DNA of 64,000 nt from Candidatus Shapirobacteria bacterium (GCA_018062705.1 JAGORQ010000002.1:7450-71449), one strand, 5' to 3'; shown: positions 5,578 to 62,950, counted from the stretch's first letter. The notes: a model not told the origin generated them from the letters alone. Numbers and translations are program-made.

Positions 5578-5692
5578 GGCACAATTTAACCATTAAACCA
5601 TTTATCATTTTTCATTGAAAACAAAAGAATAAAATATAATTGAATCAATGGTTAAATGGTTCAATGATAAATGAAAAATTTTTTATAAAATT
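5578..5692. repeat. R1 element, copy 6 (full)
   Basis: Near-identical to copy 2. Confidence 0.85.
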
Positions 5693-6034: not shown

Positions 6035-6130
6035 TATATTTAACCATTTAACCATTTATCATTTAACCAATAATTAAAAACATTTAATCAATAATTAAAT
6101 GGTTCAATGTTACAATGGTTCAATAATTTT
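6035..6130. repeat. R1 element, copy 7 (divergent)
   Basis: tttaaccatttaaccatttatcatttaacc...attaaatggttcaatgttacaatggttcaataatttt. Confidence 0.7.
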
Positions 6131-9343: not shown

Positions 9344-9369
9344 AGTAGGGGCTCGACTTGCTCGAGCCC
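9341..9369. repeat. R2 hairpin, intergenic subtype, after adk stop
   Basis: taaagtaggggctcgacttgctcgagccc. Confidence 0.8.
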
Positions 9370-11176: not shown

Positions 11177-11284
11177 AAATTAAACCATTTAACCATTTTT
11201 CATTTATCATTCAATAAATATTCAAATAACTAAAACCCCCAATGGTTCAATGGTTAAATGAAAAATGATAAATTTTTCTAATTT
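11177..11284. repeat. R1 element, copy 9
   Basis: aaaccatttaaccatttttcatttatcatt...caatggttcaatggttaaatgaaaaatgataaattttt between rpsK and rpsD. Confidence 0.75.
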
Positions 11285-31370: not shown

Positions 31371-32705
31371 ATGCGGTCAAAAAATCTTTCCGTACTGTCT
31401 TTTGCCCTAGTAGCTGCCGGTGCGATGTTTACCCCCGCTCCCGCCCAAGCCTTCGACTTTGGCCAGTTTGTCGGGTCTTTTTGGAATCATTCCATCAATC
31501 CACCAGCCGTTACTCTGTGTATTAAAAATTCTGGTGCAGTGTATGTAGTTGGGGAGGGCTTTAGAAAAGCCGATTGTAAAAAAAATGATCAGTTAATTAG
31601 CTTAAATCTCAAAGGCGCCACTGGCGACAAAGGTCCCACAGGCAATCCGGGGCCTGCCGGTCCCCAGGGTCCAGCCGGTGTTCCAGGTATTGCCGGTCCC
31701 CAGGGCGACAAGGGTGCCACTGGCGATCAGGGAAGTGCTGGTCCCGCTGGTCCTCAGGGTTTAGTTGGTGATCAGGGGCCTTTAGGTCTAAAAGGTGCTA
31801 CCGGTAATCAGGGACCCCAGGGCGACAAAGGTCCTGTCGGCGACCAAGGTCCTGCTGGCCCGGCTGGTCCTCAGGGTGCAGAAGGACCACAGGGTGCTGT
31901 TGGTCCCCAGGGTCCAGCTGGCCCTGGCGGTATTGATGGAAATATAGGACCTATTGGTCCTGTTGGTCCTGCTGGCCCCCAAGGACCTATCGGTCCCCAA
32001 GGTGATGTTGGCCCTATGGGCGCCACCGGCCCCCAGGGTCCCCAGGGTGACACTGGTGCCAAGGGAGAAGTGGGCGACAAAGGTGATACCGGAGCTGTTG
32101 GTGAACAGGGCGCCACCGGTCCCCAAGGACCCGAGGGCAAGCAAGGCCCCCAGGGTTCAAAAGGTGATCAAGGCGATCAAGGTCCCCAGGGACTAACAGG
32201 CAATAATGGTCAAAACGGCCAAGATGGCAAATCAGCCTATGATCTGGCCAAAGAAAATGGATATACCGAAGATATTACTGAATGGCTCCTCAGTTTCAAG
32301 GGTGAAAAGGGCAAAGACGGCACAAACGGTCAGGATGGCGCTCAGGGTATTGAAGGACCACGCGGTCTTCCTGGAGTCGCCGGTCTTCAAGGTGATATCG
32401 GACCTATTGGTCCTGCTGGTGCCAACGGTACCAATGGTGTTAGTGGTTGGGAAATCAAATTTAGTACTGTTTCCAGTGATGATGAATTGCTAAAAACAAA
32501 AGTAGCAGATTGCACTGCTGGCAAAAAAGTGATCGGTGGCGGATTCAAAACCATTGATGCAAGCGACTCAAGCGAAATCGTCGTCACCAATAACTATCCT
32601 CTCGATGGCGATTCTTGGACTGCTACTGCTGGCATCGATAGTAGCTCAGGTGGTGATCAGAGTTTTGCTTTACAAACATATGCCATCTGCATCTCCGCTC
32701 TGTAA
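31371..32705 (+). CDS. collagen-like (G-X-Y repeat) secreted protein with C-terminal globular domain
   Basis: About 230 aa of uninterrupted GXY triplets (GPQGPAGVPGIAGPQGDKG...); signal peptide; 110-aa non-collagen C-terminus. Confidence 0.8.
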   Translation: MRSKNLSVLSFALVAAGAMFTPAPAQAFDFGQFVGSFWNHSINPPAVTLCIKNSGAVYVVGEGFRKADCKKNDQLISLNLKGATGDKGPTGNPGPAGPQGPAGVPGIAGPQGDKGATGDQGSAGPAGPQGLVGDQGPLGLKGATGNQGPQGDKGPVGDQGPAGPAGPQGAEGPQGAVGPQGPAGPGGIDGNIGPIGPVGPAGPQGPIGPQGDVGPMGATGPQGPQGDTGAKGEVGDKGDTGAVGEQGATGPQGPEGKQGPQGSKGDQGDQGPQGLTGNNGQNGQDGKSAYDLAKENGYTEDITEWLLSFKGEKGKDGTNGQDGAQGIEGPRGLPGVAGLQGDIGPIGPAGANGTNGVSGWEIKFSTVSSDDELLKTKVADCTAGKKVIGGGFKTIDASDSSEIVVTNNYPLDGDSWTATAGIDSSSGGDQSFALQTYAICISAL

Positions 32706-32842: not shown

Positions 32843-33700
32843 GTGAAATTCCACTGGCATCATTTATTTGTCCCTCACGAACACAACAACCACCGCGCTT
32901 GGCTACTCCAACCCTACGCTATCGGTTTGTTTATCGCCGTCTATTTACTCAACCAATCCTTTATTAAATCACTGACCATCATTCGTCCGGGAGTTCTCGG
33001 CTATTCCTCTGAAATTACCCCTCAAAAAGTTTTTGATGACACCAATATTGAACGAGAGAAGCAGGGTTTGCCAGCTCTTAAATACAACCCCGCCCTGTCC
33101 GTTTCCGCCACCAAAAAAGCCCAAGACATGTTTCGTAATAATTATTGGGCTCACACCTCTCCTACCGGCACCACTCCTTGGGACTTTTTCAAAGCCGAAA
33201 ATTACCAATATTCAGTTGCTGGTGAAAACCTCGCCAAAGATTTTTACGACACTGATGGAATGATGAAAGCGTGGATGAATTCACCGACTCATCGGGCAAA
33301 TATAGTTTCTGGCAAATATCTAGAAATTGGCATTGGTGTGGTCAACGGTATCCTCAACGGCGTTCAAACCACCCTGGTGGTTCAACATTTCGCCACTCCT
33401 CTGGCCATAATAGGCAACGAACCTGCCCCCACCGATTATCAACGCGCTTCGCAATTTTTAGCCAATCAAAAAGTTTTGGCCGACACCAGTGTTGGTCGGC
33501 CCATTATCAGTCCTCTCAAAATTAGCCAAATAATCGGCGTAATTATGTTTGTAATAATTATTGGCACCTTAATTGTTGATGCCTATGTTAGCCTCACTCG
33601 CCAAACTCCTCGGCTTACCGGCTCGTCCTACGGTCACGTCGGCTATCTTTTTATAATACTTATCTTATTAATTGCCTCTCGACAGGGAATAATTTTTTAA
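32843..33700 (+). CDS. CAP/SCP (YkwD-like) domain protein with TM anchors
   Basis: YWAHTSPTG...VAGENLA...WMNSPTHRANIVSGKYLEIGIGV; GTG start. Confidence 0.7.
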   Translation: MKFHWHHLFVPHEHNNHRAWLLQPYAIGLFIAVYLLNQSFIKSLTIIRPGVLGYSSEITPQKVFDDTNIEREKQGLPALKYNPALSVSATKKAQDMFRNNYWAHTSPTGTTPWDFFKAENYQYSVAGENLAKDFYDTDGMMKAWMNSPTHRANIVSGKYLEIGIGVVNGILNGVQTTLVVQHFATPLAIIGNEPAPTDYQRASQFLANQKVLADTSVGRPIISPLKISQIIGVIMFVIIIGTLIVDAYVSLTRQTPRLTGSSYGHVGYLFIILILLIASRQGIIF

Positions 33701-33701
33701 C

Positions 33702-33965
33702 ATGACTATTTTTCAGGAAATCAAATCAAAACCAACGGTCTACATCACTATATCGCTAATATTTATTACTGGGGCAATAACTTTTTTACTCTTCGCCCAC
33801 AATCCTCATGCCCAGCGCAACATTGTGTATGCCACCGGTGGCTCATATTTTCTCTGGAGTTTACTTCACCATTATCATCGTGGCGACCTGGCCCTCTCCA
33901 TCATCATCGAATATCTTCTCTTCATCCTCTTCGGCATTCTTGTTCTATCTTCCACCTTGATCTAA
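33702..33965 (+). CDS. small membrane protein, hypothetical
   Basis: 87 aa, 2-3 TM. Confidence 0.5.
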   Translation: MTIFQEIKSKPTVYITISLIFITGAITFLLFAHNPHAQRNIVYATGGSYFLWSLLHHYHRGDLALSIIIEYLLFILFGILVLSSTLI

Positions 33966-33969
33966 TTTT

Positions 33970-34006
33970 GCCTTATTCTTACATCTTAAATCTTACTTCT
34001 TAGGTC
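33970..34006. repeat. R5 repeat
   Basis: ccttattcttacatcttaaatcttacttcttaggtct. Confidence 0.65.
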
Positions 34007-34712
34007 TAGTTTGTTCCCCTTGCCACTCTTCTATCTTCTTCGGATCCCCACTAAGCAGTACCTCGGGCACTTTTTTTCCATTAAACTCCGCCGGTCGAGT
34101 ATATTGAGCATATTCAATATAGCCTTCCTTACTGTGGCTTTCATCCTCACTGGACACATCTTTTCCCAACACTCCGGCTTGGAGTCGGGTCACACTATCG
34201 ATAATTACCATTGCTGGAATTTCTCCGCCGGTCAGTACATAGTCACCTATCGATATTTCCTCATCTACCAATGAACTTACTCGCTCGTCAAACCCTTCAT
34301 AATGACCACAAATAATGATCAAATTGTCATATTTTGCCAGTCTCTTGGCATCTTCTTGGGTATATCTTTTCCCCCTAGCACTCGTTAGTATAATTCTCCG
34401 TGTAGGGGGTTTTGACTGAATGTCATTCCCGCGTAGGCGGGAATCTATATTATTATTTTTTTCATTAGTAATTAGTAATTGGTCATTAGTAATTGATGTA
34501 ATTGCTTTTGCAATTACATCAACCCGTATCAGCATTCCCACCCCACCCCCATACGGTTTATCATCCACCGCTCCATAGCTATTCCACGCCCACTGACGCA
34601 TATCATGAGTCTTAAGTTCCAAAATAATTTTATCCACCGCCCGCTTCATCATGCTCTCAGCCATAGGGGATTCAAACATTTTGGGGAACAATGTCACCAC
34701 ATCAATTTTCAT
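33993..34712 (-). CDS. trmD: tRNA (guanine37-N1)-methyltransferase TrmD with in-frame insertion of about 25 aa encoded by a hairpin repeat
   Basis: MKIDVVTLFPKMFE...YGGGVGML...IICGHYEGFDERV...GDYVLTGGE; the insert ITNDQLLITNEKNNNIDSRLRGNDIQSKPP spans about 34405-34497. Confidence 0.85.
   Translation of the reverse strand: MKIDVVTLFPKMFESPMAESMMKRAVDKIILELKTHDMRQWAWNSYGAVDDKPYGGGVGMLIRVDVIAKAITSITNDQLLITNEKNNNIDSRLRGNDIQSKPPTRRIILTSARGKRYTQEDAKRLAKYDNLIIICGHYEGFDERVSSLVDEEISIGDYVLTGGEIPAMVIIDSVTRLQAGVLGKDVSSEDESHSKEGYIEYAQYTRPAEFNGKKVPEVLLSGDPKKIEEWQGEQTRPKK
34425..34444. repeat. R6 hairpin inside trmD coding sequence
   Basis: attcccgcgtaggcgggaat, within the insertion-bearing segment. Confidence 0.55.
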
Positions 34713-34718
34713 AACTTA

Positions 34719-35663
34719 TTATCTCACTTGTGGCAATGCTGGTGTAATTTCAAGAGTGGCCTCACTGGATCTTGGTTTTAACTTCAAAAATACATTTCCA
34801 GAAACTATTTCATTTGAATATTGTAGTTTTGTACCAGTCAATCCTTCACCCAATCTAAAAGGAACCGTATATGTTGTTTCCAAATTAAGTCGGCCATAAT
34901 TAAGTACTGCTAGAGTAGTCGCCGCCGTACAACCAACAGGCTCACTCACATCGTTTCCTTGACCTGTAGGATCGTTAACTACCCAAATCATATTGTTTGC
35001 GTCCTCTCGACTAAATCCACCCCCTCTTATCTCTTCTGCATACAAAGATATCTCGGCAAACCTTCCTTCAAATACATCATCTGTGGAAGTGGAACTACGA
35101 ATACTAGTCGGTTGAATAAAAGTAACCAAGTCATATTTTTTCAAATAAGCTGTTTTATAAGCACGACTTATTAACTCTCTGTTAAATTTAGCTAATTTAG
35201 GATTGTTCTGTTCTTGCGACCTAACTTGGTAGACCTTTGATGACGGGACACCACGGTCAGACATCACAACTATTCGAGTAGACACAGTTGATCTAAATAT
35301 ATTTTCCGCAACATCTGAGCCAAACATGTCCCCTTCAAATATTAATTCTTGAAGTTTTCTCCTGGCCATCATAAAAACCGCCAACTGTTCTCGGGTATCA
35401 TCCCCAGCAAACCCTCCCTTTAAAAAATGTCTTGCGTCTAGATCACCCGGCACGCAATCAAGTCTTAATCGGGGAGGTTCCGCAGTAGTATATAAGTCAG
35501 CCATCTTATAAAAATTAAGTGCAGATAGTTCTGCAGCTTTTTGGGAAATAAATGTTTTACCGCCACCATTAGGTCCTTCATTGACAGTGTACAAAATTTT
35601 TTTATTACCATTCAATCTTGGCTTTTCTATAAGTTCTTTTTCAAAAAACTCCAAAAATGTCAT
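34719..35663 (-). CDS. P-loop kinase, thymidylate-kinase-like N-terminal domain plus unknown C-terminal domain (putative)
   Basis: NEGPNGGGKT Walker A; TTAEPP and DARHF resemble dTMP kinase motifs. Confidence 0.35.
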   Translation of the reverse strand: MTFLEFFEKELIEKPRLNGNKKILYTVNEGPNGGGKTFISQKAAELSALNFYKMADLYTTAEPPRLRLDCVPGDLDARHFLKGGFAGDDTREQLAVFMMARRKLQELIFEGDMFGSDVAENIFRSTVSTRIVVMSDRGVPSSKVYQVRSQEQNNPKLAKFNRELISRAYKTAYLKKYDLVTFIQPTSIRSSTSTDDVFEGRFAEISLYAEEIRGGGFSREDANNMIWVVNDPTGQGNDVSEPVGCTAATTLAVLNYGRLNLETTYTVPFRLGEGLTGTKLQYSNEIVSGNVFLKLKPRSSEATLEITPALPQVR

Positions 35664-36990: not shown

Positions 36991-37473
36991 ATGACAATTA
37001 CTCATCATCAAGTCAATCAGCCAGGTCCTACCGACAAAATATATTTCTATCCCAAAGAGTATTATGTTTTCGACAATTTCTCTTCATTCCAAGTGGAATG
37101 GCAAGGAGTTCTTTGGCCCACCTCCGAACATGCTTTTCAAGCGGTTGGCTTTTTTGACACCGCACCAGATGTTTACGAAAAAATAAAATTAACTCGATCA
37201 GCCCACGATGCTCAAAAAATTGCTCATGAAAATAAAGATAAGTTGCCTGCAGAATGGGATAAAATTAATGTCGGCATTATGATGGATATTTTGCGTCACA
37301 AAATTGACCAACATCCTTACGTTCTCAAAAAACTTCTTCAATCAGGCGATAGAGAAATCATCGAAGACTCCTGGCGCGATCCTGTTTGGGGTTGGGGTGA
37401 ACATCAAGATGGTCAAAATCTGCTTGGCAAAATCTGGATGGAATTGCGAAAGGAATATCAATCCAAAAAATAA
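36991..37473 (+). CDS. NADAR (YbiA-like, DUF1768) domain protein
   Basis: FYPKEYYVFDNFSSFQVEW...WPTSEHAFQA...WGWGEHQDGQNLLGKIWMELR. Confidence 0.8.
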   Translation: MTITHHQVNQPGPTDKIYFYPKEYYVFDNFSSFQVEWQGVLWPTSEHAFQAVGFFDTAPDVYEKIKLTRSAHDAQKIAHENKDKLPAEWDKINVGIMMDILRHKIDQHPYVLKKLLQSGDREIIEDSWRDPVWGWGEHQDGQNLLGKIWMELRKEYQSKK

Positions 37474-37474
37474 T

Positions 37475-37504
37475 CCACCGTAGGGGCTCAACTTGCTTGA
37501 GCCC
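37475..37504. repeat. R2 hairpin (variant)
   Basis: ccaccgtaggggctcaacttgcttgagccc + ttttt. Confidence 0.8.
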
Positions 37505-37515
37505 TTTTTATATGG

Positions 37516-37535
37516 ATTCCCGCCTTCGCGGGTAT
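37516..37535. repeat. R6 hairpin attcccgc cttc gcgggtat (relative of the trmD insert hairpin)
   Basis: Compare 34425-34444 attcccgc gtag gcgggaat. Confidence 0.5.
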
Positions 37536-37590
37536 GACCGTTTTTCTGTCAATCAAACTTTGATTATTCCCAAACCTATCCCGTATTTTC

Positions 37591-37633: not shown

Positions 37634-37663
37634 CCACCGTAGGGGCTCGACTTGCTCGAGCCC
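37634..37663. repeat. R2 hairpin
   Basis: ccaccgtaggggctcgacttgctcgagccc. Confidence 0.8.
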
Positions 37664-38088: not shown

Positions 38089-38125
38089 CCCCCTCTTATC
38101 AAAGAGGGGGTAGGGGGAGATTTAA
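38089..38125. repeat. R3 hairpin (canonical)
   Basis: tccccctcttatcaaagagggggtagggggagattta. Confidence 0.75.
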
Positions 38126-38656: not shown

Positions 38657-39892
38657 ATGAAGAGTGTTGTTACCCCCTCCCTGTCAAGGGAGGGGGATAG
38701 GGGGAGGATTGAAGATGTTAAGGAGGGGACCGAGGGGTGGATTAGTAAATCAAAAAAAATTACTCCGTACCTGATAGTTGTTGTATTAGCCATTGCTCTA
38801 GCCTATTTTTTAGTAAGTTTTTTTCAATTAAAACAAGTTTTCGTCACCGCCACCAAACCCAAAAATCCTACCCCTACCTCAGTTCAACCAACTCCAACAC
38901 TGGATCCCGACCGACCAGTATCTATTTTGTTGCTCGGTTATGGCGGAGGCACCCATGATGGAGGCAGTCTCACTGATTCAATTATGTTGGCTGAAGTTCG
39001 CCCTCACGATCAACAAGTCGACCTAATTTCCATCCCTCGCGATTTATGGGTCGAGCTCCCTGTGGGCAACACCACACCATTTTTTTCCAAAATAAATGCC
39101 GCCTATGTAATTGGCAGTGACGATCGACGTTATCCCCACAAATCGGCCGAATTTACTGGACCAGCCGGTGGTGGTGAAATGGCCAAAACAGTTGTTTCCC
39201 AAATTACCGGCAAAAAAATTGACTATTTTCTAGCCATCGATTTCCAAGGTTTTGTCAAAGTTATTGATCAGCTTGGTGGTATTGATCTCAAGGTCACCCG
39301 TCCACTTGATGACCCTTTTTACCCAATTGATGTCGGCACTACTGATATTTGTGGCAAGTCAGCCGAAGAAATAACCGCTATTACTGCCACTATGTCTGGT
39401 GAAAAACTCGAGCATGCCTTTACCTGTCGATACGAAAATCTCCATTTTGGTGTCGGCACCACTCATGTTGATGGTGCGACTGCTCTCAAGTTTGCCCGTT
39501 CCCGCCACGCTCCCAACGATGGTGGTGATTTTAATCGAGCCACTCGCCAGCGCCAAGTCATTATGGCAGTCAAAACCAAAGCCTTGACTCTCAATTCTTT
39601 TAGCAAAATCTTCTCGATTATTAAAACCCTTTCTTATCATGTTCGCACTGATCTAACACCTCTGGTCATCGAAAGTTATCTGCCTCGAGCCGTCGAATTT
39701 TCCAATTACAAAATAAACTCTCTACCACTAACCGACAAAACAGTTTTAAAAATTGATGTTAGTGTCGACCGTCAATCAATTTTGGTCCCCACTGGCGGTA
39801 TTGGTCAATACGATTATATTCATCAATATCTCCAAAATCCTTCAATTCTGACTCCAACAATAACCCCAACCCCTTCTCCAATTATTAATTAG
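38657..39892 (+). CDS. LytR-CpsA-Psr (LCP) family protein with in-frame R3 hairpin repeat near N-terminus
   Basis: ILLLGYGGGTHDGGSLTDSIMLAEV...LISIPRDLWVELP...KINAAY; repeat 38673-38710 encodes VTPSLSREGDRGRIE. Confidence 0.75.
   Translation: MKSVVTPSLSREGDRGRIEDVKEGTEGWISKSKKITPYLIVVVLAIALAYFLVSFFQLKQVFVTATKPKNPTPTSVQPTPTLDPDRPVSILLLGYGGGTHDGGSLTDSIMLAEVRPHDQQVDLISIPRDLWVELPVGNTTPFFSKINAAYVIGSDDRRYPHKSAEFTGPAGGGEMAKTVVSQITGKKIDYFLAIDFQGFVKVIDQLGGIDLKVTRPLDDPFYPIDVGTTDICGKSAEEITAITATMSGEKLEHAFTCRYENLHFGVGTTHVDGATALKFARSRHAPNDGGDFNRATRQRQVIMAVKTKALTLNSFSKIFSIIKTLSYHVRTDLTPLVIESYLPRAVEFSNYKINSLPLTDKTVLKIDVSVDRQSILVPTGGIGQYDYIHQYLQNPSILTPTITPTPSPIIN
38673..38710. repeat. R3 hairpin in frame in the LCP gene
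   Basis: ccccctccctgtcaagggagggggatagggggaggatt. Confidence 0.75.
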
Positions 39893-42167: not shown

Positions 42168-42238
42168 TACCCCGTCGGCTAATGGTAGGCCATTACGCTC
42201 TGAACGTAAGAATTGTGGTTCGAATCCATGCGGGGTAA
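42168..42238 (+). tRNA. tRNA-Gln (anticodon CTG), no encoded CCA
   Basis: Manual fold: acceptor taccccg/cggggta, D arm ggct-aatggta-ggcc, anticodon arm ttacg-CT[CTG]AA-cgtaa, T arm tgtgg-ttcgaat-ccatg, discriminator A. Confidence 0.8.
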
Positions 42239-43672
42239 CCCTAGTGTATGATCGTTATATTTTGCGATTAGATTAAACGGTTTTACCCAATCGCTTACGA
42301 GTAATTTGTTCTCGATACGTAAGTTCGAAAGTGTCATGCCTATTAGTTGTCGTTTTTGCTCAGCATTCGAACTTTCAAATATCTGACTAGCTCGTGATGT
42401 CAGCTTTATCACCTGTTCTATGGTGGAATAATAGTTATTCTCTGCTTCACCGAGGTTGCTGATTTGAACATTGAAGTCAGCGATTTTGTTATCAATCTCA
42501 ACCTTGAGTTTGTCGTATTCATTGCCAGTAATACGCTGATCGAGTAATGTTGTCAGTAAGGTCTCTTTTCTTTTTGTATACATCTCAAGATCACGATTGA
42601 GTTTTCGGCTCATTTCTTCTCTAAATTCCTTTTTGCCTTCGTTTACTGATTTGAGAGTTGTTAGGACGTCGCTAATTACCTGCTCTGGCAATATCAATTT
42701 CTCAAACAATTTACTGACTTGGTTATTTATCAAATGTTCTGCCATCATGACGGCATTGTGTTTGCCCTTAGATTCACTGCATTGATAATAAAACTCGCCT
42801 TTGTGAAGCTCAGGTGAAGCTGAACAGCCACAAACAGCACAGGTTAACTTACCTCGATAGACTGCTGGCTTGGCATGTATTTTTCTACGCTTCTTATTAA
42901 ATCCATTTCTAATTTCTTGGACTTTGTCGAACAACTGTCTATCAATGATAGTTTCGTAGATATGGGAGAACAGTTGGCCTTTGTGAAACATCAAGCCGTA
43001 GTAAAATGTGTTAGTTAAAATTTTGGAAATGTTGCCGTTAGACATTTTAACCTTGTAGTCGTCCAATACCTTTTTTCGGACTGTTTGGAACGAGTGGTTG
43101 CCTGAAGCATAAAGTGAATAGATTTCTTTGACAACTTTTGAATTAAATGGGTGAGGCTTGATATTCTTTTTGCCTTCTTCGTCAAGGTAATTTATATATC
43201 CGTATGGTGGCTTGCCTGGCAACTTACCTTCAATTACCATCTGCTCGATTTTTCTTTTGACATTGTCACTTAACTGTAAAACGTAACTTCTGGCAAACAT
43301 CACGGCCATATCCCAGCGAAGCAAATCAGCACTGTTTGATGTTTGGCTGATAACTAAGTTTTCTCGATAAAAATGAATTTCAATTTTACCCTTTTTTCGT
43401 AATTCATCTAGTTGAACTGACTCTTTGAAGCTTCGTTGTAGTCGGTCAACAGTGTCAACAACTAATGCAATTGGCTCCTTTATATGTTCAATTTCTTTGA
43501 TGACTTCTTGAAATTTCTTACGATCATTTTTGGTGGACGACTCTTCAATCTCGACAGTCTTCCAAACATTTAGACTTTTGTGTCTGACATATTCAGCAAT
43601 ACGGACTAGCTGAGCTTCATTGGAATCCTGCTTTTTGTCCGAAACTCTGGCTAATACGATGGCTTTCATCAT
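42179..43672 (-). CDS. large serine recombinase (integrase)
   Basis: AIVLARVSDKKQ catalytic Ser region, recombinase domain, CAVCGC...C zinc ribbon; C-terminal 19 codons overlap the tRNA-Gln 3' part. Confidence 0.8.
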   Translation of the reverse strand: MMKAIVLARVSDKKQDSNEAQLVRIAEYVRHKSLNVWKTVEIEESSTKNDRKKFQEVIKEIEHIKEPIALVVDTVDRLQRSFKESVQLDELRKKGKIEIHFYRENLVISQTSNSADLLRWDMAVMFARSYVLQLSDNVKRKIEQMVIEGKLPGKPPYGYINYLDEEGKKNIKPHPFNSKVVKEIYSLYASGNHSFQTVRKKVLDDYKVKMSNGNISKILTNTFYYGLMFHKGQLFSHIYETIIDRQLFDKVQEIRNGFNKKRRKIHAKPAVYRGKLTCAVCGCSASPELHKGEFYYQCSESKGKHNAVMMAEHLINNQVSKLFEKLILPEQVISDVLTTLKSVNEGKKEFREEMSRKLNRDLEMYTKRKETLLTTLLDQRITGNEYDKLKVEIDNKIADFNVQISNLGEAENNYYSTIEQVIKLTSRASQIFESSNAEQKRQLIGMTLSNLRIENKLLVSDWVKPFNLIAKYNDHTLGLPRMDSNHNSYVQSVMAYH

Positions 43673-44415
43673 TAGATATCAAATTTATTAAAGCCTTCAT
43701 ACTTACTAAACGATAGTAAATAAATACTTTTAAGTAGATTTGGTGATATAGCTTTAAGTTCACTAAATACCGTGTTGGTTTTATTTCTGTCTTTCATTGA
43801 ATGAATAACATCATCAAGGATTATTGGTAGTTTTTCACATAAGTTTTTAAATGAGTCTTTTTGGCTTGTAACGATTTCGTAAAACTTATCGATTGAAATT
43901 TTTCTGATTCTCTCGTCTGATACAGTTTCACTGTCGAGTGATACTTTCCATATTTCATTTTGACTCTTTTTTGCAATAACTTCTACGAGAGCACAAGTGG
44001 CTTGTTTATCTTTGGCAACTTTACTCATCATTCTCATATATGTTTTTTGAGAAGATGAAGAGTTCATTGTGTTGTGCTTATTTTTCATTTCAACATAGAA
44101 ATGTAATTTTTCATTTACGACATCATAGCCGTGTGTCGGAACAGTCCAAGCTGAATCAATATACTTGAATAGGTTTTGATGAAAATATCCAATTTCGTTT
44201 GTGTTTGTTTTGTCTATTTGTCTGATAATTTCACTTTCAATTGTGTCTTCAATACTTTTACTGTAAATTTTTGAATCAAATGTCATTTTAATGGGATCAA
44301 TTAAGTTCTTGTTAAATGTTGACAGTGATATATCAAAACGATATTTTTCAACAGTATTCTTTACATGGTTGTAAATATCTTTGTCAGCAATAAAACCAAG
44401 ATTATATGTGTTCAT
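43672..44415 (-). CDS. hypothetical protein, candidate type II restriction endonuclease
   Basis: Immediately downstream of, and co-oriented with, the C5-MTase; no recognisable motifs. Confidence 0.35.
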   Translation of the reverse strand: MNTYNLGFIADKDIYNHVKNTVEKYRFDISLSTFNKNLIDPIKMTFDSKIYSKSIEDTIESEIIRQIDKTNTNEIGYFHQNLFKYIDSAWTVPTHGYDVVNEKLHFYVEMKNKHNTMNSSSSQKTYMRMMSKVAKDKQATCALVEVIAKKSQNEIWKVSLDSETVSDERIRKISIDKFYEIVTSQKDSFKNLCEKLPIILDDVIHSMKDRNKTNTVFSELKAISPNLLKSIYLLSFSKYEGFNKFDI

Positions 44416-44419
44416 ATTG

Positions 44420-45679
44420 TTATTTAATAACTTTTAATAAATTTATGGCTACTTCTCTGACAATATTTACTCCAAGTGCATTACCGAGTAAACCAAGGCT
44501 TTTTCCATAACTTTCAGGAAATTTATATGAGTCTGGAAAACCTTGAACCCTTGCCGCTTCTCGGACTGAAAGTTGTCTATATAACTTTTTTCTGTAAATA
44601 TTTTCAACAAAATACTCTTTTTTGTCTTTAGTGTTTATTGGAATATCTATTGTGCTCACAAAATCTCTTACACCAGTTTTAGTTAAAGTTGAAAATACAT
44701 GTGAGCTTGGAGTAAATATTCGATAAATGCCGAATACACCTGACGAATTTTTTGAATTTACAAAGTCATATTTCCCATCTCGGTATAATAATATTTTTTT
44801 CTCTATGAGACTTGATAAATCATTAGTTTTTAAATTAGGAATTATTTTTTGGATGTCTGTAAAGCTTAGCGGATTACCATCTTTTGTTCCATATTTCTTT
44901 TTTCTGCGATTTTTCAATATTGCAAAACAGATATTCTTTTCATTATCATTTGTGTCTATAATGTCCCACGAATGGATTGTATGATCTCCGTTTCTAGTAT
45001 CACAAAAAGTAAAGTAATTATCTTTGTTGATTGTATATGACATCCCGAATGAATTTTTTATATTTGTGTCATTTTTTACTGATTTGTGTAAATGTGTTTT
45101 GTAATCTTCAAGTATTTCTGACATGTTTGGTAATATCTTGTATGTATCGGGAAAAACAAACTCAAGAATATTGTCTTTTTTAATTCCAACGATAAATACT
45201 CTTTCTCTGTTTTGCGGTAATCCATAATCAAAAGCATTTAACACTTTGTAGTTGACCTTGTAGCCAACTTGTTCAAATGACTCAATAATTAGTGACAAAT
45301 TTTCATGATTTCTTGGATCAGCTAAACCTTTGACATTTTCAAATATAAAAGCCTTTGGCTTAACATTTTCTACAAATTTGATTGTGTCAAACCATAAAGC
45401 TCCTCGTGGATCTTCAAAACCGTGTTTTTTTCCTGCAACTGACCACGATTGACAAGGGACACCACCAGTTATTAAATCAGCATATGGATATTTTTTGATT
45501 TTCGTAATGTCTCCTAGATTTTCTTCTTCTGATGAGTCAAAGTTAGCTGTGTATACCTGAATAGCTGTTTTATCTATTTCGGAATAGCCAACACATTTAC
45601 CGCCCTGTTCTTCCAACGCTATCCTAAAGCCACCAATACCTGCAAATAGGTCAATAAAAGTAAAATTATTTTTTGTCAT
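44420..45679 (-). CDS. DNA (cytosine-5)-methyltransferase
   Basis: FAGIGG (motif I), GGVPCQSWS (motif IV), ENV (motif VI). Confidence 0.9.
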   Translation of the reverse strand: MTKNNFTFIDLFAGIGGFRIALEEQGGKCVGYSEIDKTAIQVYTANFDSSEEENLGDITKIKKYPYADLITGGVPCQSWSVAGKKHGFEDPRGALWFDTIKFVENVKPKAFIFENVKGLADPRNHENLSLIIESFEQVGYKVNYKVLNAFDYGLPQNRERVFIVGIKKDNILEFVFPDTYKILPNMSEILEDYKTHLHKSVKNDTNIKNSFGMSYTINKDNYFTFCDTRNGDHTIHSWDIIDTNDNEKNICFAILKNRRKKKYGTKDGNPLSFTDIQKIIPNLKTNDLSSLIEKKILLYRDGKYDFVNSKNSSGVFGIYRIFTPSSHVFSTLTKTGVRDFVSTIDIPINTKDKKEYFVENIYRKKLYRQLSVREAARVQGFPDSYKFPESYGKSLGLLGNALGVNIVREVAINLLKVIK

Positions 45680-52818: not shown

Positions 52819-53886
52819 ATGGATTTACGACAGTTAATCAATTCCAAATTTGTCATTGGCTTAGCGCCAATGGATGGTGTAACTGACGAAGCTTATCGTC
52901 AAACTCAGTGTCACATCTACAAACCCGACGTAATTTTCACCGAATTCACCAGTGCCGAGGGCATTTCTCGTGGTGGCGTCAAGCTCTATGACGAATTGTT
53001 ATATTCTGCCAACGAACGCCCAATTATCGGCCAAATCTTTGGCAAAGATCCAGAAAGTTTTTATAAATCTGCCATTATTTTAACCCATCTTGGTTTTGAT
53101 GGCATTGACATCAATATGGGCTGCCCCGCCAAAAATGTCACCCAGCATGGATCTGGCGCCGCCTTAATTGGCAAACCTGAGCTTGCCTCCGAACTAATCG
53201 AATCAGTCCGGCAGGGGATTAATGACTATTGTGAGGGCAAGGTCGGCATCAATGACATTGGCCTCAAAAAATCCACCCTCGACGTTATCGATCGCAATTT
53301 AAAATACTCCGGTCTTACCCCCTCGTTATCAAAGAGGGGGCAGGGGGAGATTTTGATCCCAACTTTGTCTCTCAAAACCCGCCTCGGCATCGACTCCGAC
53401 GTTTCCGACACCTGGATTCCCCACGTCCTCAAACACAAATTGGATTTTATGACCCTTCATGGTCGAACTCTCCGCCAAGGTTATTCAGGTCTGTCCAATT
53501 GGGAGAGTATTTCTCGCGCCGCCATGATCGCCAAAGAATTACACACCCCTTTTTGGGGCAACGGTGATGTTACCAATATTTCCCAAGCCCAAGACTACGG
53601 CACAAAATACGGAGTTACTGGAATATTAATAGGTCGCTCAAGTATGGGTAATCCCTGGATTTTCACCGACCACCTCCCCACATGGACCGAAAAATTTGCT
53701 GTCATGAAGTATCACACCCAAAAATTTATCGAGGTTTACCCCGAGCGTCGGCTAGATCCATTACGTCATCACTTCATTCTTTTTGTTTCCGGTCATCCTC
53801 GCGCCGCCGAACTTCGCCAAAAAGTCATCCGAATTGAATCATTTGAGCAACTTTGTGCCCTTGAACCCGACTTCATCAACTGCTAA
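52819..53886 (+). CDS. dus: tRNA-dihydrouridine synthase with in-frame R3 hairpin repeat
   Basis: LAPMDGVTDEAYR, GIDINMGCPAKNV; repeat 53317-53353 encodes LTPSLSKRGQGEILIP. Confidence 0.85.
   Translation: MDLRQLINSKFVIGLAPMDGVTDEAYRQTQCHIYKPDVIFTEFTSAEGISRGGVKLYDELLYSANERPIIGQIFGKDPESFYKSAIILTHLGFDGIDINMGCPAKNVTQHGSGAALIGKPELASELIESVRQGINDYCEGKVGINDIGLKKSTLDVIDRNLKYSGLTPSLSKRGQGEILIPTLSLKTRLGIDSDVSDTWIPHVLKHKLDFMTLHGRTLRQGYSGLSNWESISRAAMIAKELHTPFWGNGDVTNISQAQDYGTKYGVTGILIGRSSMGNPWIFTDHLPTWTEKFAVMKYHTQKFIEVYPERRLDPLRHHFILFVSGHPRAAELRQKVIRIESFEQLCALEPDFINC
53317..53353. repeat. R3 hairpin in frame in dus
   Basis: ccccctcgttatcaaagagggggcagggggagatttt. Confidence 0.75.
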
Positions 53887-54757: not shown

Positions 54758-55789
54758 ATGAATCTCCCCCAAGTACAGGCTTTTTTAAAAGAGTCTGGTC
54801 AACCAGATTACCGTTTTCGCCAAATTTCCAAAAACTATTTTTCTGGTCGCTATCAAAGCTTTTTGGAGATGACTGATCTGCCTTTGAATTTGCGTGAATC
54901 ACTCAACACCAATTCACCATTACTTTCTGTCACTCTCGACAAAATAATTGATAGTCCCAACACTCACAAAGCCCGCCTTACCCTTTCTGATGGCAAACAA
55001 ATTGAAACTGTCCTAATGGACTACGGTAGCTGGTCGACTGTCTGTGTCAGCTCCCAGGTTGGTTGTGCTCTAGGTTGTACTTTTTGCGCTACCGGCAAAA
55101 TGGGCTTTACCCGAAATTTAACTCCCGAAGAAATTGTTGACCAAATAATTTTTTGGAAATATTATTTACATAAAAGTAAAGTAGGGGCTTCGCTGGCCGA
55201 AGCCCACGAGGGGGGTTTAAGAATTGTTTTCATGGGCATGGGTGAACCCTTTCTCAATTTTGACAACTTCGTCTCCGCCACCACAATCATCAATAGTCCC
55301 GAGGGCTTAAATATTGGTCAACGCAAAATGAGTGTCTCTACTGCTGGTGTCGTTCCTGGCATCAAAAAATTTATGGAGCTGGACACCCAAATTAATTTGG
55401 CCATTTCCCTCCATTCAGCTGACCAAGCCACCCGCGCCCAAATGATGCCTATCGCTCGTCAATATACTCTGGACGAATTAATTCCTGCTATCAAAGATTA
55501 TGCCGACAAAACTAATCGTCAGGTGTTTTTTGAATATCTTTTGGCCAAAAACATCAACGATACACCGTTTCACCTAGATCTGCTCATCGACCTAATGTCT
55601 CAACACAAACTTTTTTACCTCAATCTCATCCCCCTCAATCCTATCAAGGGTGGGCTCACCCCCAGCGCCCAGTCTACTTTAAATAACTTTGAAACTGAAT
55701 TAACCCGTCACCACATCAACTATTCCATCCGCCAATCCTTGGGACAATCAGCCGCCTCCGCCTGTGGCCAACTTATAGTCGAAAAATAG
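54758..55789 (+). CDS. rlmN: 23S rRNA/tRNA adenine-C2 methyltransferase RlmN (radical SAM) with in-frame R2 hairpin repeat
   Basis: CVSSQVGCALGCTFCATG; repeat 55175-55206 encodes HKSKVGASLAEAHE. Confidence 0.85.
   Translation: MNLPQVQAFLKESGQPDYRFRQISKNYFSGRYQSFLEMTDLPLNLRESLNTNSPLLSVTLDKIIDSPNTHKARLTLSDGKQIETVLMDYGSWSTVCVSSQVGCALGCTFCATGKMGFTRNLTPEEIVDQIIFWKYYLHKSKVGASLAEAHEGGLRIVFMGMGEPFLNFDNFVSATTIINSPEGLNIGQRKMSVSTAGVVPGIKKFMELDTQINLAISLHSADQATRAQMMPIARQYTLDELIPAIKDYADKTNRQVFFEYLLAKNINDTPFHLDLLIDLMSQHKLFYLNLIPLNPIKGGLTPSAQSTLNNFETELTRHHINYSIRQSLGQSAASACGQLIVEK
55175..55206. repeat. R2 hairpin, coding subtype, in frame in rlmN
   Basis: aagtaaagtaggggcttcgctggccgaagccc. Confidence 0.8.
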
Positions 55790-61361: not shown

Positions 61362-62458
61362 CGTAAAGTAGGGGCTCGACTAGCTCGAGCCCGACCAGTG
61401 GTGTCTCTTTGAGTTGATAAAGAAGATATCCCCACCGCCAAATAAAAAAACAAATACTCGTTAATATTCACCACATTTACTGCCGAAATAAACAAGAAAC
61501 CAACTAAACAAAGCAGGGCATTTACCTGTCTTGCCCTATACAATCTCAAAAGCGCTTCAGCACACAACCAGGCATAAATAACCATTGCCGGCACTCCGCC
61601 AGCCACACCCATTTCCAGCCATTCGTTATGAGCCTTGTCCACTCGAATATTTTTCAAGTCAAAGTCATTTTGTTTCAAAGTTGAACCAAATGCTACCTCA
61701 AAATTTTCTACTCCCCAGCCAAAAACTGGCTTTTTGGCTATAGCCTCGATGCCCCTTTGCCAAATTACACCTCTTTGGTCAAAGCTGGAAACTTCTCTTT
61801 TAGGGTAAATCAAAATTCCGGAAATCAAACAGAATACTCCAGCCAACACCAGCAATCTTCTATTCAATACTCTTTGCCATAGCTTTACAGCAATTATCAT
61901 CCCAAATGCGATTAAAGCTGATCGTGAGCCGGTCAGCCAAATTCCACCACCAATTATCCCCAACAGCCACCAATTATTAATAAAAGGCGATGTTAAGGCC
62001 AAATAGCCTCCTGCAAAATTAGGATTACCCAAAAAACCAGCTACCCGGCCATCAGCACCAGCGAATTTCTGGAAAAATATCAACAAGGTCACCAAGCTAG
62101 CCCCCACTGTCATAATTGTACCTAGTTTTTCCAAAATTTTATTCCTATTTAGCTTTGCTACCAACCAGTACCAACCCAAATAACCTACCATAGTAATTAA
62201 ACCTTGATACCTGTAATATTGCCCAAAAAAACTGTTTGGATTTCCATTAACCAATGAGCAGATAAGTAACCAGCCTAACATTATCAAGATTAACTTATCT
62301 AGTTTAGTAAAACTCTTGACAGACCTATAATAATATGGTATAACTAACCCAATTACAAACAAAAACAACAGAATTTTTGGCAGTTCAAATTTATCATAAA
62401 ATCCGCTCCAAAATACCTGTGGCAAAATTATGAACAAAAAAGTTGTTAGCCAAACCAT
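61358..62458 (-). CDS. O-antigen ligase (Wzy_C)-like polytopic membrane protein
   Basis: ...WLTGSRSALIAFGMIIAV...; the track ORF extends to 62794, but its N-terminal 112 aa (VGV repeats) are the shadow of the opposite PT-linker gene, so the start at 62458 is inferred. Confidence 0.55.
   Translation of the reverse strand: MVWLTTFLFIILPQVFWSGFYDKFELPKILLFLFVIGLVIPYYYRSVKSFTKLDKLILIMLGWLLICSLVNGNPNSFFGQYYRYQGLITMVGYLGWYWLVAKLNRNKILEKLGTIMTVGASLVTLLIFFQKFAGADGRVAGFLGNPNFAGGYLALTSPFINNWWLLGIIGGGIWLTGSRSALIAFGMIIAVKLWQRVLNRRLLVLAGVFCLISGILIYPKREVSSFDQRGVIWQRGIEAIAKKPVFGWGVENFEVAFGSTLKQNDFDLKNIRVDKAHNEWLEMGVAGGVPAMVIYAWLCAEALLRLYRARQVNALLCLVGFLFISAVNVVNINEYLFFYLAVGISSLSTQRDTTGRARASRAPTLR
61363..61392. 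repeat. R2 hairpin after lon stop
   Basis: gtaaagtaggggctcgactagctcgagccc. Confidence 0.8.
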
Positions 62459-62920: not shown

Positions 62921-62950
62921 GTAAAGTAGGGGCTCGACTTGCTCGAGCCC
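62921..62950. repeat. R2 hairpin between convergent genes
   Basis: gtaaagtaggggctcgacttgctcgagccc. Confidence 0.8.

What the first reader, a model, noticed from the sequence alone, without database searches (positions are those of the whole stretch)
33993..34712. trmD carries an in-frame insertion of about 25 aa built from AT-rich sequence plus a GC hairpin (R6) related to an intergenic copy at 37516
- Between the conserved GGGVGML...DVIAKAITS segment and RRIILTSARGKRY, TrmD has ITNDQLLITNEKNNNIDSRLRGNDIQSKPP.
- The DNA encoding it includes the perfect hairpin attcccgc-gtag-gcgggaat (34425-34444). Its arms match attcccgc-cttc-gcgggtat at 37516-37535, which is intergenic.
- The adjacent native DVIAKAITS codons form a second perfect 11-4-11 palindrome, gatgtaattgc-tttt-gcaattacatc.
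- TrmD is an essential, compact enzyme, so an element inserted into it is notable.
Basis: partly seen in the sequence, partly recalled or inferred. Interest (0 to 1): 0.55.

Follow-up and report, generated by a model that had tools for sequence, protein, structure and literature searches.

The report
Repeat DNA inserted in-frame in trmD
An essential tRNA-methylating enzyme of a tiny uncultured bacterium carries about 26 extra amino acids that come from two kinds of "junk" repeat DNA lodged in a floppy surface loop, a known kind of event (like the palindromic elements of Rickettsia) that turns out to be common and fast-changing in this bacterial group.

Summary
trmD (33993-34712, minus strand; Candidatus Shapirobacteria, a CPR bacterium) is intact but carries 26 extra residues, in two nested pieces.

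- **Heptamer piece:** a 21-nt block of heptamer repeats.
- **Hairpin piece:** a 57-nt block whose 27-nt core, TGTC-ATTCCCGC-GTAG-GCGGGAAT-CTA, is a CGTC-1 REP. This is the family published as Neisseria dRS3 and Rickettsia RPE-6. The same 23-mer occurs in at least 120 genome loci across many phyla.

The intergenic copy at 37516 is a true relative (26/29), but in reverse orientation.

The insert lies in a low-confidence loop between helix 64-75 and strand 105-116, before the SPOUT knot. All family-invariant residues are kept, and only one of the six reading frames is open.

Among 110 related TrmDs, this loop holds at least six other repeat-derived inserts. Alleles that are 97-98% identical differ only there. 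RlmN shows the same pattern, and rlmN, dus and the L22 gene in this window also carry in-frame hairpin repeats.

Verdict: a real, probably near-neutral intragenic REP insertion that survived selection. It is a new member of a known kind. The loop hot spots and their fast turnover are the more interesting part.

The parts
33993..34712 (-). trmD coding sequence, 239 aa, intact and in-frame across the insert
   Evidence: ORF list. Pfam PF01746 E 8e-51 across residues 22-234. 27 solved TrmD chains matched, best E 1e-54. The identical protein is named TrmD of Candidatus Shapirobacteria. All family-invariant residues are kept.
34401..34457 (-). 57-nt insert piece 2 (codons 86-104, NNNIDSRLRGNDIQSKPPT), which contains the GC hairpin
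   Evidence: This piece is absent from L129 (P0075), which otherwise carries the same ITNDQLLITNEK loop.
34421..34447 (+). REP core, TGTC tag - ATTCCCGC - GTAG - GCGGGAAT - CTA tail. Its element polarity is on the + strand, so it is antisense to trmD.
   Evidence: Exact hairpin. It matches the consensus of 173 instances from many phyla, yCGTCATTCCCGC-GNAR-GCGGGAATCCAG. It matches the CGTC-1 definition and the dRS3 patterns. The Rfam FtrB model holds the same hairpin.
34464..34494 (-). Heptamer tandem array (ATTACTA/ATGACCA type, 4.4 copies), encoding ITNDQLLITN. Of this, 21 nt (codons 77-83, 34464-34484) are extra relative to insert-free relatives.
   Evidence: TRF period 7, and period 21 x 2.0. 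Insert-free L001 reads IKNEKSR. A 36-nt exact run is shared with L129 despite 70% gene-wide identity. Period-7 arrays are an intergenic hallmark of this window: 17 found against 1.35 in shuffles.
34493..34522 (.). Perfect 13-4-13 palindrome, TTGATGTAATTGC-TTTT-GCAATTACATCAA, in the codons for VDVIAKAITSI at the upstream edge of the insert
   Evidence: longest perfect hairpin in the window. RNA hairpin -18 kcal/mol. Relative L126 keeps an 8-bp version with a compensatory synonymous change.
37513..37539 (-). Second, intergenic copy of the CGTC-1 REP (GGTC-ATaCCCGC-GAAG-GCGGGAAT-CCA) between convergent genes
   Evidence: A weak FtrB match falls on the same strand as the element polarity.
37475..37504 (+). 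GTAG-tagged REP of a second family (CCACC-GTAG-GGGCTCAA-CTTGC-TTGAGCCC), terminator-like, next to REP copy 2. A sister copy lies at 37634-37663.

Best explanation
The extra 26 residues of this TrmD are repeat DNA of the intergenic type that became fixed in-frame inside the gene, in two steps.

**Step 1.** A 21-nt block of heptamer repeats was added, turning ITN-EK into ITN-DQLLITN-EK.

**Step 2.** A 57-nt piece was inserted between EK and the RRIIL strand. Its 27-nt core is a small palindromic REP of the CGTC-1 type (the family of Neisseria dRS3 and Rickettsia RPE-6).

Both pieces lie in the connection between helix 64-75 and strand 105-116. That is the end of the strand opposite the S-adenosylmethionine-binding loops, and it comes before the knotted part of the chain. 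The enzyme most likely still folds and works.

Because trmD is essential, only insertions that keep the frame, have no stop codon, and fall in a permissive loop can persist. What we see is the survivor of that filter. It is not a designed module.

**Shown:** the anatomy, the family identity of the hairpin, the existence of intermediate and empty alleles, the intact motifs, and the rapid turnover of this loop in relatives.

**Inferred:** how the REP moved (transposition by an unidentified enzyme, or copying or recombination from another REP copy), that the insert is near-neutral, and that the protein is active.
For: **Gene integrity**
- The ORF is intact and the Pfam match spans the insert.
- 63 family-invariant residues are present, including LTSARG, GHYEGFDER and GDYVLTGGE.
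- Solved TrmDs align on both sides of the insert.
- The model is recognised as TrmD with probability 1.0.

**Two nested events**
- L001 reads KAIKAIKNEKSRIIL.
- L129 reads KKITNDQLLITNEKPKIIL.
- The window reads SITNDQLLITNEK[19 aa]RRIIL.

**REP identity**
- Tag TGTC, an 8-bp stem starting with AT, a 4-nt loop and a 3-nt tail fit the published CGTC-1 definition. That paper equates CGTC-1 with dRS3 and RPE-6.
- The trmD sense strand, ATTCCCGCCTACGCGGGAAT, fits the dRS3 Nf1-subtype pattern ATTCCCRCCTRCGCGGRAAK exactly.
- The 23-mer was found in at least 120 loci of many phyla. The element is polar, with a G-N-A-R loop.

**Location in the protein**
- Residues 80-102 have pLDDT below 50, between helix 64-75 and strand 105-116.

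**Signs of a selection filter**
- Only 1 of the 6 frames of the 93-nt insert is open, and it is the one in use.
- In the sense orientation the hairpin has no U-tract after it. The T-rich tail is on the antisense strand.

**Generality**
- The same loop carries other repeat-derived peptides in relatives: DSRFREND, ASSxTPRND, LCPPxADISLEKGDFK, ITNFQKTNLQFPNKSQ, PLPLTGE and PPSLDRDG. Other GC hairpins are seen in their DNA.
- Alleles 97-98% identical differ only there.
- RlmN relatives show the same pattern at one loop, 40 of 105.
- rlmN, dus, the L22 N-terminus and a Wzy tail in this window carry in-frame hairpin repeats.
- The same CGTC-1 REP sits in-frame in GatB, TGT, a DNA methylase and a P-type ATPase of other CPR and DPANN genomes.
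- Published precedent exists for intragenic REPs and RPEs.
Against: - No close relative with an empty site for the REP piece was found. The nearest TrmDs are 75% identical, so the exact boundaries of the 57-nt piece and any target duplication are undefined.
- Only about 27-29 nt of the 57 are shared with other copies. The origin of the remaining roughly 28 nt is unknown.
- There are only two copies of this REP in 64 kb, and both are singletons. No transposase of the RAYT/IS200 type was found among the 51 ORFs scanned. No mobilising enzyme is therefore identified.
- The heptamer insert is 36/36 identical to that of a relative whose gene is only 70% identical. Simple neutral vertical descent does not explain this.
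- Three different GTCATT-tagged REPs occupy the same loop in the same orientation and frame in different lineages. This may mean targeting or REP-to-REP replacement, not random hits.
- Enzyme activity and expression are untested.
Confidence: 0.8

Rival explanations
1. The hairpins have been co-opted for a function. One version is at RNA or DNA level: they stabilise or pace the trmD mRNA, or act as a terminator for antisense transcription coming from the convergent genes on the + strand. Another version is at protein level: the loop serves as an added surface.
For: On the + strand the REP is followed by CTATATTATTATTTTTTT and scores as terminator-like. It faces the convergent genes 32843-33965 (+). 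The 151-nt mRNA segment folds far better than shuffles, z = -5.9. The native palindrome is kept in L126 through a compensatory synonymous change. In Francisella the same hairpin is part of an expressed small RNA, FtrB.
Against: The inserts at this site are unrelated in sequence between lineages, and many relatives have none. They come and go between 97-98% identical alleles, which argues against a conserved role. The hairpins of relatives have no consistent T-tract on either strand. Copy 2 has no T-tract on its polarity strand. Deleting FtrB gave no phenotype.
Confidence: 0.1
2. The loop grew by local replication slippage or template switching on native codons. On this view no pre-existing repeat element was inserted.
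For: The heptamer piece is a tandem array with a 21-nt periodicity that overlaps the native AITS codons. The unit CAATTAC is the reverse complement of the native GTAATTG in the VIA codons, and a perfect 13-bp palindrome sits at the junction. Heptamer arrays arise all over this genome.
Against: The GC hairpin matches a consensus shared by many phyla at the tag, stem, loop type and tail, and it matches an intergenic copy at 26/29. Local slippage cannot produce that. The heptamer block is 36/36 identical in L129, which lacks the palindrome and has different flanking codons. So this rival can at most explain the 21-nt piece.
Confidence: 0.05
3. The insert is an assembly artefact or a chimeric join created by repeats.
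For: The exact protein is known from a single 73-kb contig. It was not found in the contig index. Reads are not available here.
Against: Both flanks are collinear trmD and the frame is kept. A join through a 27-nt repeat would not return to the same gene in frame. The heptamer piece recurs identically in an independent JGI assembly. REPs and other hairpins at the same codon position are seen in many independent assemblies from JGI, ENA, NCBI and Logan.
Confidence: 0.02
4. trmD has been inactivated by the insertion and is a decaying gene.
For: CPR genomes are reduced. No activity data exist.
Against: There is no frameshift or stop codon, and every family-invariant residue is kept. Relatives with inserts are equally conserved, and near-identical alleles differ only in the loop. 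The insert is outside the conserved core.
Confidence: 0.03

Closest known systems
CGTC-1 REPs (Di Nocera, De Gregorio and Rocco 2013, PMC3733652), which include the Neisseria dRS3 repeats and Rickettsia conorii RPE-6
   Same: The tag is CGTC or TGTC. The stem is 8 bp and starts with AT. The loop is 4 nt and there is a 3-nt tail. The sequence is ATTCCC-N8-GGGAAT. Copies are found between convergent genes and sometimes wholly inside ORFs, where they encode short peptides. No dedicated transposase is known.
   Different: The host is a CPR (Patescibacteria) bacterium, a group outside the five phyla listed in that paper. Copy number in the window is low (2 in 64 kb). The copies are singletons, not head-to-head dimers. 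The tail of the trmD copy is CTA, not CCA.
Rickettsia palindromic elements (RPE; Ogata et al. 2000, as reviewed in PMC10969869)
   Same: Palindromic repeats are inserted in-frame into unrelated housekeeping genes, at positions judged compatible with the protein fold. They add a peptide segment.
   Different: Classical RPE-1 is about 100-150 bp with its own conserved peptide. Here the conserved core is 27-29 nt within a 57-nt piece, and it is combined with a heptamer microsatellite. Translation of the insert has not been shown here.
REPIN-RAYT systems (Bertels and Rainey; bioRxiv 10.1101/2021.07.10.451892)
   Same: The most common Neisseria REP 21-mer, ATTCCCGCGCAGGCGGGAATC, has the same stem and flank as the trmD hairpin. 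It differs only in the loop.
   Different: In the window there is no inverted doublet and no RAYT gene. REPINs are described as extragenic and vertically inherited within a lineage. Here the element is intragenic, and its 23-mer is shared by many phyla.
Francisella small RNA FtrB (Rfam RF02748; PMC3091763)
   Same: The FtrB consensus contains GUCAUUCCCGCGUAGGCGGGAAUC, identical to the trmD REP including the GUAG loop. The window matches the model on the element's polarity strand.
   Different: The score is 30.8 bits against a gathering score of 66. Only the hairpin part aligns with confidence. In the window that strand is antisense to a coding gene, so this is not an FtrB gene.
Heptanucleotide tandem repeats of cyanobacteria (STRR; recalled from memory, Mazel et al. 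1990, not checked here)
   Same: Short arrays of 7-nt units, mostly intergenic. The unit TTGGTCA resembles part of the trmD array (ATTGGTC on the + strand).
   Different: The phylum is different and the units are AT-rich. No relationship was tested.

Membership tests
CGTC-1 REP (= dRS3 = RPE-6) | Terminal CGTC motif, often changed to TGTC or CCTC | tested here: met
   Copy 1 has TGTC at 34421-34424. 54 of 173 instances from many phyla have T at that position. Copy 2 has GGTC, a rarer variant.
CGTC-1 REP (= dRS3 = RPE-6) | 8-bp stem with A and T in the first two positions, and a 4-nt loop | tested here: met
   ATTCCCGC / GCGGGAAT with loop GTAG. Copy 2 has one stem mismatch and loop GAAG. The loop fits the G-N-A-R pattern seen in 173 instances.
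CGTC-1 REP (= dRS3 = RPE-6) | Short unpaired tail, mostly CCA | tested here: inconclusive
   Copy 1 has CTA (T at that position in 21 of 173 instances). Copy 2 has CCA.
CGTC-1 REP (= dRS3 = RPE-6) | dRS3 pattern ATTCCC(N8)GGGAAT, and Nf1-target subtype ATTCCCRCCTRCGCGGRAAK | tested here: met
   The trmD sense strand, ATTCCCGCCTACGCGGGAAT, fits both patterns. The patterns are quoted from PMC3898611.
CGTC-1 REP (= dRS3 = RPE-6) | A repeated family within the genome (tens to thousands of copies), mostly as head-to-head dimers | tested here: inconclusive
   There are 2 singleton copies in the 64-kb window. The rest of the genome is not available. Doublets of the same REP occur in-frame in other CPR and DPANN genes (L049, L099).
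REPIN-RAYT system | Two REPs in inverted orientation forming a REPIN | tested here: not met
   The two copies are 3 kb apart and no partner lies within 130 nt.
REPIN-RAYT system | A cognate RAYT (Y1/IS200-like transposase) gene flanked by the REPs | tested here: not met
   There is no Y1 transposase family among the 51 ORFs scanned with Pfam. About 21 short ORFs of the ribosomal-protein region were not scanned, and the window is only part of the genome. This is absence in the window only.
Rickettsia palindromic elements (in-frame intragenic repeats) | A palindromic repeat inserted in-frame in a conserved protein-coding gene, with homologues that lack it | tested here: met
Rickettsia palindromic elements (in-frame intragenic repeats) | The insertion lies on the protein surface, compatible with fold and function | tested here: inconclusive
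   The model gives pLDDT below 50 for residues 80-102, between helix 64-75 and strand 105-116. Solved TrmDs have a 7-residue connection there. No coordinates were measured and no activity was tested.
Rickettsia palindromic elements (in-frame intragenic repeats) | The element is about 100-150 bp and encodes its own conserved peptide (RPE-1 type) | tested here: not met
   The conserved core is only 27-29 nt. This fits the small RPE-6 / CGTC-1 class.
TrmD (SPOUT tRNA m1G37 methyltransferase) | Pfam tRNA_m1G_MT domain above threshold, with the conserved knot-loop motifs | tested here: met
   173 bits against a cut-off of 27.3. LTSARG, GHYEGFDER and SIGDYVLTGGEIPAM are present and invariant in 38 relatives. 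Foldseek probability to TrmD structures is 1.0.
TrmD (SPOUT tRNA m1G37 methyltransferase) | Catalytic activity on G37 of tRNA | not testable with these tools
   This needs an enzyme assay or tRNA modification mapping.
Intein or self-splicing intron (considered) | Splicing motifs and adequate size (intein more than about 130 aa; group I or II intron more than about 200 nt) | tested here: not met
   The insert is 78-93 nt. No Rfam intron family matched.

The most novel reading that the evidence does not exclude
The helix-to-strand loop of TrmD, and the matching loop of RlmN, may not just be tolerant sites. They may be preferred landing or exchange sites. On this reading, hairpin repeats in these CPR genomes are inserted or swapped by a hairpin-directed process: REP-to-REP replacement, or template switching at palindromes such as the 13-bp one next to the insert. 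That process would work without a known RAYT and would generate fast, strain-level variation in surface loops of essential RNA-modifying enzymes.

The data do not exclude this reading:
- Three different GTCATT-tagged REPs lie in the same orientation and frame at one loop.
- A 36-nt insert is identical in genes that are 70% identical.
- Loops are replaced between alleles that are 97% identical.
Probability: 0.2. Interest if true: 0.6.

Novelty: new member of a known kind. Interest (0 to 1): 0.38.

Why it matters
**For annotation.** Peptides such as DSRLRGND, VIPAKAGIQ, VGASLAEA or PSLSKRGQGE inside CPR proteins are translated repeat DNA and not functional motifs. Weak Rfam FtrB hits outside Francisella are hits to this REP.

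**For biology.** The result extends the CGTC-1/dRS3/RPE-6 palindrome to CPR bacteria, with one copy also seen in a DPANN (Nanoarchaeota) MAG, and shows the same 23-mer in many phyla. It also shows that even very small genomes tolerate repeat DNA inside essential genes.

**For protein evolution.** A few permissive loops in these enzymes turn over quickly. That gives a natural map of sites in TrmD and RlmN that tolerate insertions. TrmD is an antibiotic target, so such a map may be useful. It also offers a test bed for how small palindromic repeats move when no transposase is known.

Tried and rejected
- **Peptide search in papers.** A search for the translated repeat peptides (SRLRGND, VIPAKAGIQ and others) found nothing.
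- **Exact-protein lookup.** The window TrmD was not in the contig index, so no second assembly of the same allele was obtained.
- **Rfam.** Only sub-threshold hits were found. The FtrB hit is explained by the shared REP. No intron or riboswitch matched.
- **Wider homology between the two REP copies.** An apparent shared TTGACwGAA motif upstream did not hold up when a third copy (L130) was added. Only about 27-29 nt are common.
- **Other copies of the heptamer block.** I searched for the 32-nt block in the window and in all fetched loci, allowing up to 5 mismatches. Only the trmD copies of the window and L129 were found.
- **RAYT in the window.** None was found among 51 ORFs. This says little about the whole genome.
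- **Open-frame test in high-GC genomes.** This was rejected as uninformative, because long spurious open frames are common there. Only the low-GC or clearly annotated CPR and DPANN cases were used.
- **Distant TrmD relatives.** The metagenome scan returned mostly distant sequences. It did not yield a close relative with an empty site for the REP piece.
- **Antisense-terminator idea.** It was kept only as a low-probability rival, because hairpins in relatives lack a consistent T-tract.

Full report

Yes. The minus-strand ORF 33993-34712 encodes a 239-aa protein that matches Pfam tRNA_m1G_MT over residues 22-234 (E 8e-51). The identical sequence is named TrmD of Candidatus Shapirobacteria, a CPR/Microgenomates bacterium, on a 73-kb contig.

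Twenty-seven distinct solved TrmD sequences match. They align in two blocks, residues 1-72 and 105-235. The best match, S. aureus TrmD, has 7 residues where this protein has 32.

The hairpin ATTCCCGC-GTAG-GCGGGAAT is at 34425-34444, and a one-mismatch copy is at 37516-37535. The second palindrome is longer than reported: 13-4-13 at 34493-34522. It is the longest perfect hairpin in the window.

The two GC hairpins are best aligned as reverse complements. The match then runs into the flanks, 26 of 29. A 29-mer search with up to 3 mismatches finds only these two sites, against 0.00 expected.

**2. Anatomy of the insert**

DNA of relatives resolves two nested events:

| Source | Loop sequence |
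|---|---|
| L001 (insert-free) | KAIKAIKNEKSRIILT |
| L129 | KKITNDQLLITNEKPKIILT |
| Window | SITNDQLLITNEK-NNNIDSRLRGNDIQSKPPT-RRIILT |

- **Piece 1** is a heptamer tandem array (34464-34494, period 7, 4.4 copies). Of it, 21 nt are extra relative to insert-free relatives.
- **Piece 2** is 57 nt (34401-34457) and holds the GC hairpin.

Period-7 arrays are strongly enriched in this window: 17 against 1.35 in shuffles. Twelve of the 17 are intergenic. Piece 1 therefore looks like this genome's intergenic DNA.

Among three copies of the hairpin element, only about 27-29 nt are shared. The conserved core is TGTC-ATTCCCGC-GTAG-GCGGGAAT-CTA at 34421-34447. Its polarity is on the + strand, so it is antisense to trmD.

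**3. What the hairpin is**

The hits came from Bacteroidota, several classes of Proteobacteria, Chloroflexota, Planctomycetota, Nitrospirota, several CPR groups, a Nanoarchaeota MAG, Neisseria and Coxiellaceae.

The 173 instances give the polar consensus yCGTCATTCCCGC-GNAR-GCGGGAATCCAG. There is no conservation beyond that.

This is the published CGTC-1 REP. Its definition is a CGTC tag (often TGTC), an 8-bp stem beginning with AT, a 4-nt loop and a CCA tail. The same paper equates CGTC-1 with Neisseria dRS3 and with R. conorii RPE-6. It records REPs lying wholly inside ORFs, and it notes that CGTC REPs lack a dedicated transposase (PMC3733652).

Three further links to known elements:
- The trmD sense strand fits the dRS3 Nf1-target pattern ATTCCCRCCTRCGCGGRAAK exactly (PMC3898611).
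- The most common Neisseria REP 21-mer, from which its RAYT-associated REPINs are built, has the same stem (bioRxiv 10.1101/2021.07.10.451892).
- The Francisella small RNA FtrB contains the identical hairpin. This explains the sub-threshold Rfam hits at both window copies.

**4. Where the insert sits in the protein**

An AlphaFold model built on 38 relatives has helix 64-75, pLDDT below 50 for residues 80-102, and strand 105-116. The model is recognised as TrmD.

The insert is therefore a helix-to-strand connection just before the strand whose far end carries LTSARG.

By the general rule for alpha/beta folds, ligand-binding loops follow the C-terminal ends of strands. From my recollection of the TrmD structures, the knot is formed by the segments that start at this LTSARG loop. 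On those grounds the insert is on the opposite side from the AdoMet pocket and N-terminal to the knot. This is an inference. No distances were measured.

All 63 residues that are invariant across the 38 relatives are present.

**5. Signs of a selection filter**

- Of the six reading frames of the 93-nt insert, only the one in use is open.
- In the mRNA the hairpin (-13 kcal/mol) is not followed by a U-tract. The T-rich tail is on the other strand, where the site scores as terminator-like.

Both points fit survival of the one orientation and frame that does not damage an essential gene.

**6. The site is a hot spot, and not only in TrmD**

*TrmD loop.* In 110 related TrmDs the segment is 13-15 residues long in 32 and longer in the rest. 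At least six further insert types occur:
- DSRFREND, a degenerate CGTC-1 REP (L130).
- ASSxTPRND, another GTCATT-tagged REP (L131).
- LCPPxADISLEKGDFK.
- ITNFQKTNLQFPNKSQ.
- PLPLTGE.
- PPSLDRDG.

GC hairpins are visible in the DNA of these relatives. On a neighbour-joining tree the insert types are scattered.

Near-identical alleles differ only in the loop:

| Pair | Identity outside the loop | Difference in the loop |
|---|---|---|
| P0012 / P0042 | 204/208 | +20 aa |
| P0098 / P0099 | 213/220 | loop replaced |

*RlmN loop.* RlmN behaves the same way. 40 of 105 relatives have inserts of 3-27 residues of repeat type at the position where the window protein has KVGASLAEA.

*Other genes in this window.* A GTAG-tagged REP has seven copies, all on the + strand. 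It lies in-frame in rlmN and in the L22 N-terminal extension, and it supplies the tail of a Wzy-like ORF. Dus carries an in-frame copy of a third hairpin family.

*Other genomes.* The CGTC-1 REP lies in-frame in GatB, TGT, a DNA methylase and a P-type ATPase of other CPR and DPANN genomes.

**7. Explanation and rivals**

The best-supported reading is a near-neutral, in-frame intragenic REP plus a heptamer repeat, retained because it fell in a permissive loop (confidence about 0.8).

Rivals:
- **Functional co-option** as an RNA or DNA signal or as a protein surface (0.10).
- **Purely local slippage** (0.05). This is possible only for the heptamer piece.
- **Pseudogenisation** (0.03).
- **Assembly artefact** (0.02).

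Three things remain unexplained:
- The 36-nt identity of the heptamer block with a gene that is 70% identical overall.
- The 13-bp palindrome, which is kept in a relative through a compensatory synonymous change.
- The same orientation and frame for three different REPs in this loop.

Together these leave room for a targeted or hairpin-templated exchange process (probability about 0.2).

**8. Novelty**

In-frame palindromic repeats in housekeeping genes have been known since the Rickettsia RPE work and the 2013 REP survey. The trmD case is therefore a new member of a known kind.

In the searchable literature I found no report of the following:
- This REP in CPR bacteria.
- A repeat-derived insert in trmD.
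- The strain-level turnover of such inserts at single loops of TrmD and RlmN.

Interest is moderate.

Noticed in passing
window 911-935, 9345-9369, 37480-37504, 37639-37663, 55181-55205, 61368-61392, 62926-62950: A second REP family with a 5' GTAG tag (GTAG-GGGCTCGA-CTTGC-TCGAGCCC and the variant GGGCTTCG-CTGGC-CGAAGCCC). There are seven copies and all lie on the + strand whatever the gene orientation. This may reflect a replication-strand bias.
   Followed up: partly
window 54758-55789 (+), hairpin 55185-55205; window 857-1297 (+), hairpin 915-935; window 61358-62794 (-), hairpin 61372-61392: The GTAG REP lies in-frame inside the RlmN-like radical SAM gene (KSKVGASLAEAHEGG) and in the N-terminal extension of the L22 ORF (SKVGASLAEARP). 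It also supplies the last residues and the stop codon of a Wzy_C ORF. 40 of 105 RlmN relatives carry other repeat-type inserts at the same loop.
   Followed up: yes
window 53319-53341 in ORF 52819-53886 (+); compare 38089-38110 and 38673-38696: The Dus (tRNA dihydrouridine synthase) ORF contains CCCCCTC-GTTATCAAA-GAGGGGG in-frame (TPSLSKRGQGE). This is almost identical to the intergenic terminator-like hairpin at 38089-38110. A related hairpin, CCCCCTCCCT-GTCA-AGGGAGGGGG, lies in the first codons of the LytR-family ORF at 38657.
   Followed up: partly
window 34493-34522; L126 1501-2196: The 13-bp perfect palindrome in the VDVIAKAITSI codons is the longest perfect hairpin in the window. Relative L126 keeps GTAATCGC-CAAG-GCGATTAC, a compensatory pair of synonymous changes (ATT to ATC with GCA to GCG). 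The cause could be selection for a hairpin or templated 'quasipalindrome' correction. It is unknown.
   Followed up: partly
window 34459-34494 and L129 about 616-651: The heptamer block AATTACTAATGACCAATTACTAATTACTAATGAAAA is 36/36 identical in two trmD genes that are only 70% identical overall. The next longest exact run between them is 17 nt. No other copy was found in the window or in the fetched loci.
   Followed up: partly
L037 6317-6339, L049 6952-6974, L099 1511-1533, L116 7688-7710: The same CGTC-1 REP lies in-frame in GatB (Saccharibacteria), TGT (Parcubacteria, as an inverted doublet giving VIPAKAGIQ...DSRLRGND), a DNA methylase (Nanoarchaeota MAG, doublet) and a P-type ATPase (Magasanikbacteria).
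   Followed up: yes
window 34412-34506 (+) and 37465-37552 (-): Both REP copies give sub-threshold hits to Rfam FtrB (Francisella sRNA B), whose consensus contains this very hairpin. FtrB-like hits outside Francisella are likely to be hits to the repeat and not to sRNA genes.
   Followed up: yes
window 34719-35663 (-): A 314-aa ORF with no Pfam match sits directly upstream of trmD. At that position relative L126 has a 231-aa thymidylate kinase, and the P0016 contig has a 314-aa ORF with no recorded Pfam hit. The window ORF has a P-loop-like NEGPNGGGKT, so it may be a divergent, enlarged kinase.
   Followed up: no
window 42179-45679 (-): A large serine recombinase (Resolvase plus Recombinase domains) lies next to an Eco47II-type restriction enzyme and a C-5 cytosine methylase. 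ORFs without Pfam matches follow, then a SpoVG-like ORF. This is probably a small integrated mobile island.
   Followed up: no
window 528-556, 1302-1384, 2052-2135, 4927-4945, 5584-5666, 6038-6124, 11179-11260: Paired 8-nt tandem motifs, ATTAAACC ... AATGGTTA, recur in the gaps between ribosomal-protein genes. They include a 12-5-12 perfect palindrome at 528-556. This is a third kind of intergenic repeat.
   Followed up: no
window, whole: Tandem arrays of period 7 are about 12-fold over-represented (17 against 1.35 in shuffles) and are mostly intergenic. GC-rich perfect hairpins number about 19 distinct sites, against about 1 expected.
   Followed up: yes
window 33993-34712 (-), residue E191: In the alignment to S. 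aureus TrmD (DDSF), this protein reads DESH, and E191 is invariant in the 38 Shapirobacteria TrmDs aligned. From memory, the second Asp of that motif corresponds to the catalytic base D169 of E. coli TrmD. If so, this clade uses Glu at that position.
   Followed up: no
window 31371-32705 (+): A 444-aa secreted-looking protein has long collagen-like Gly-X-Y repeats (Pfam Collagen, 5 stretches). It lies next to glycosyl hydrolase, glycosyltransferase and polysaccharide deacetylase genes.
   Followed up: no
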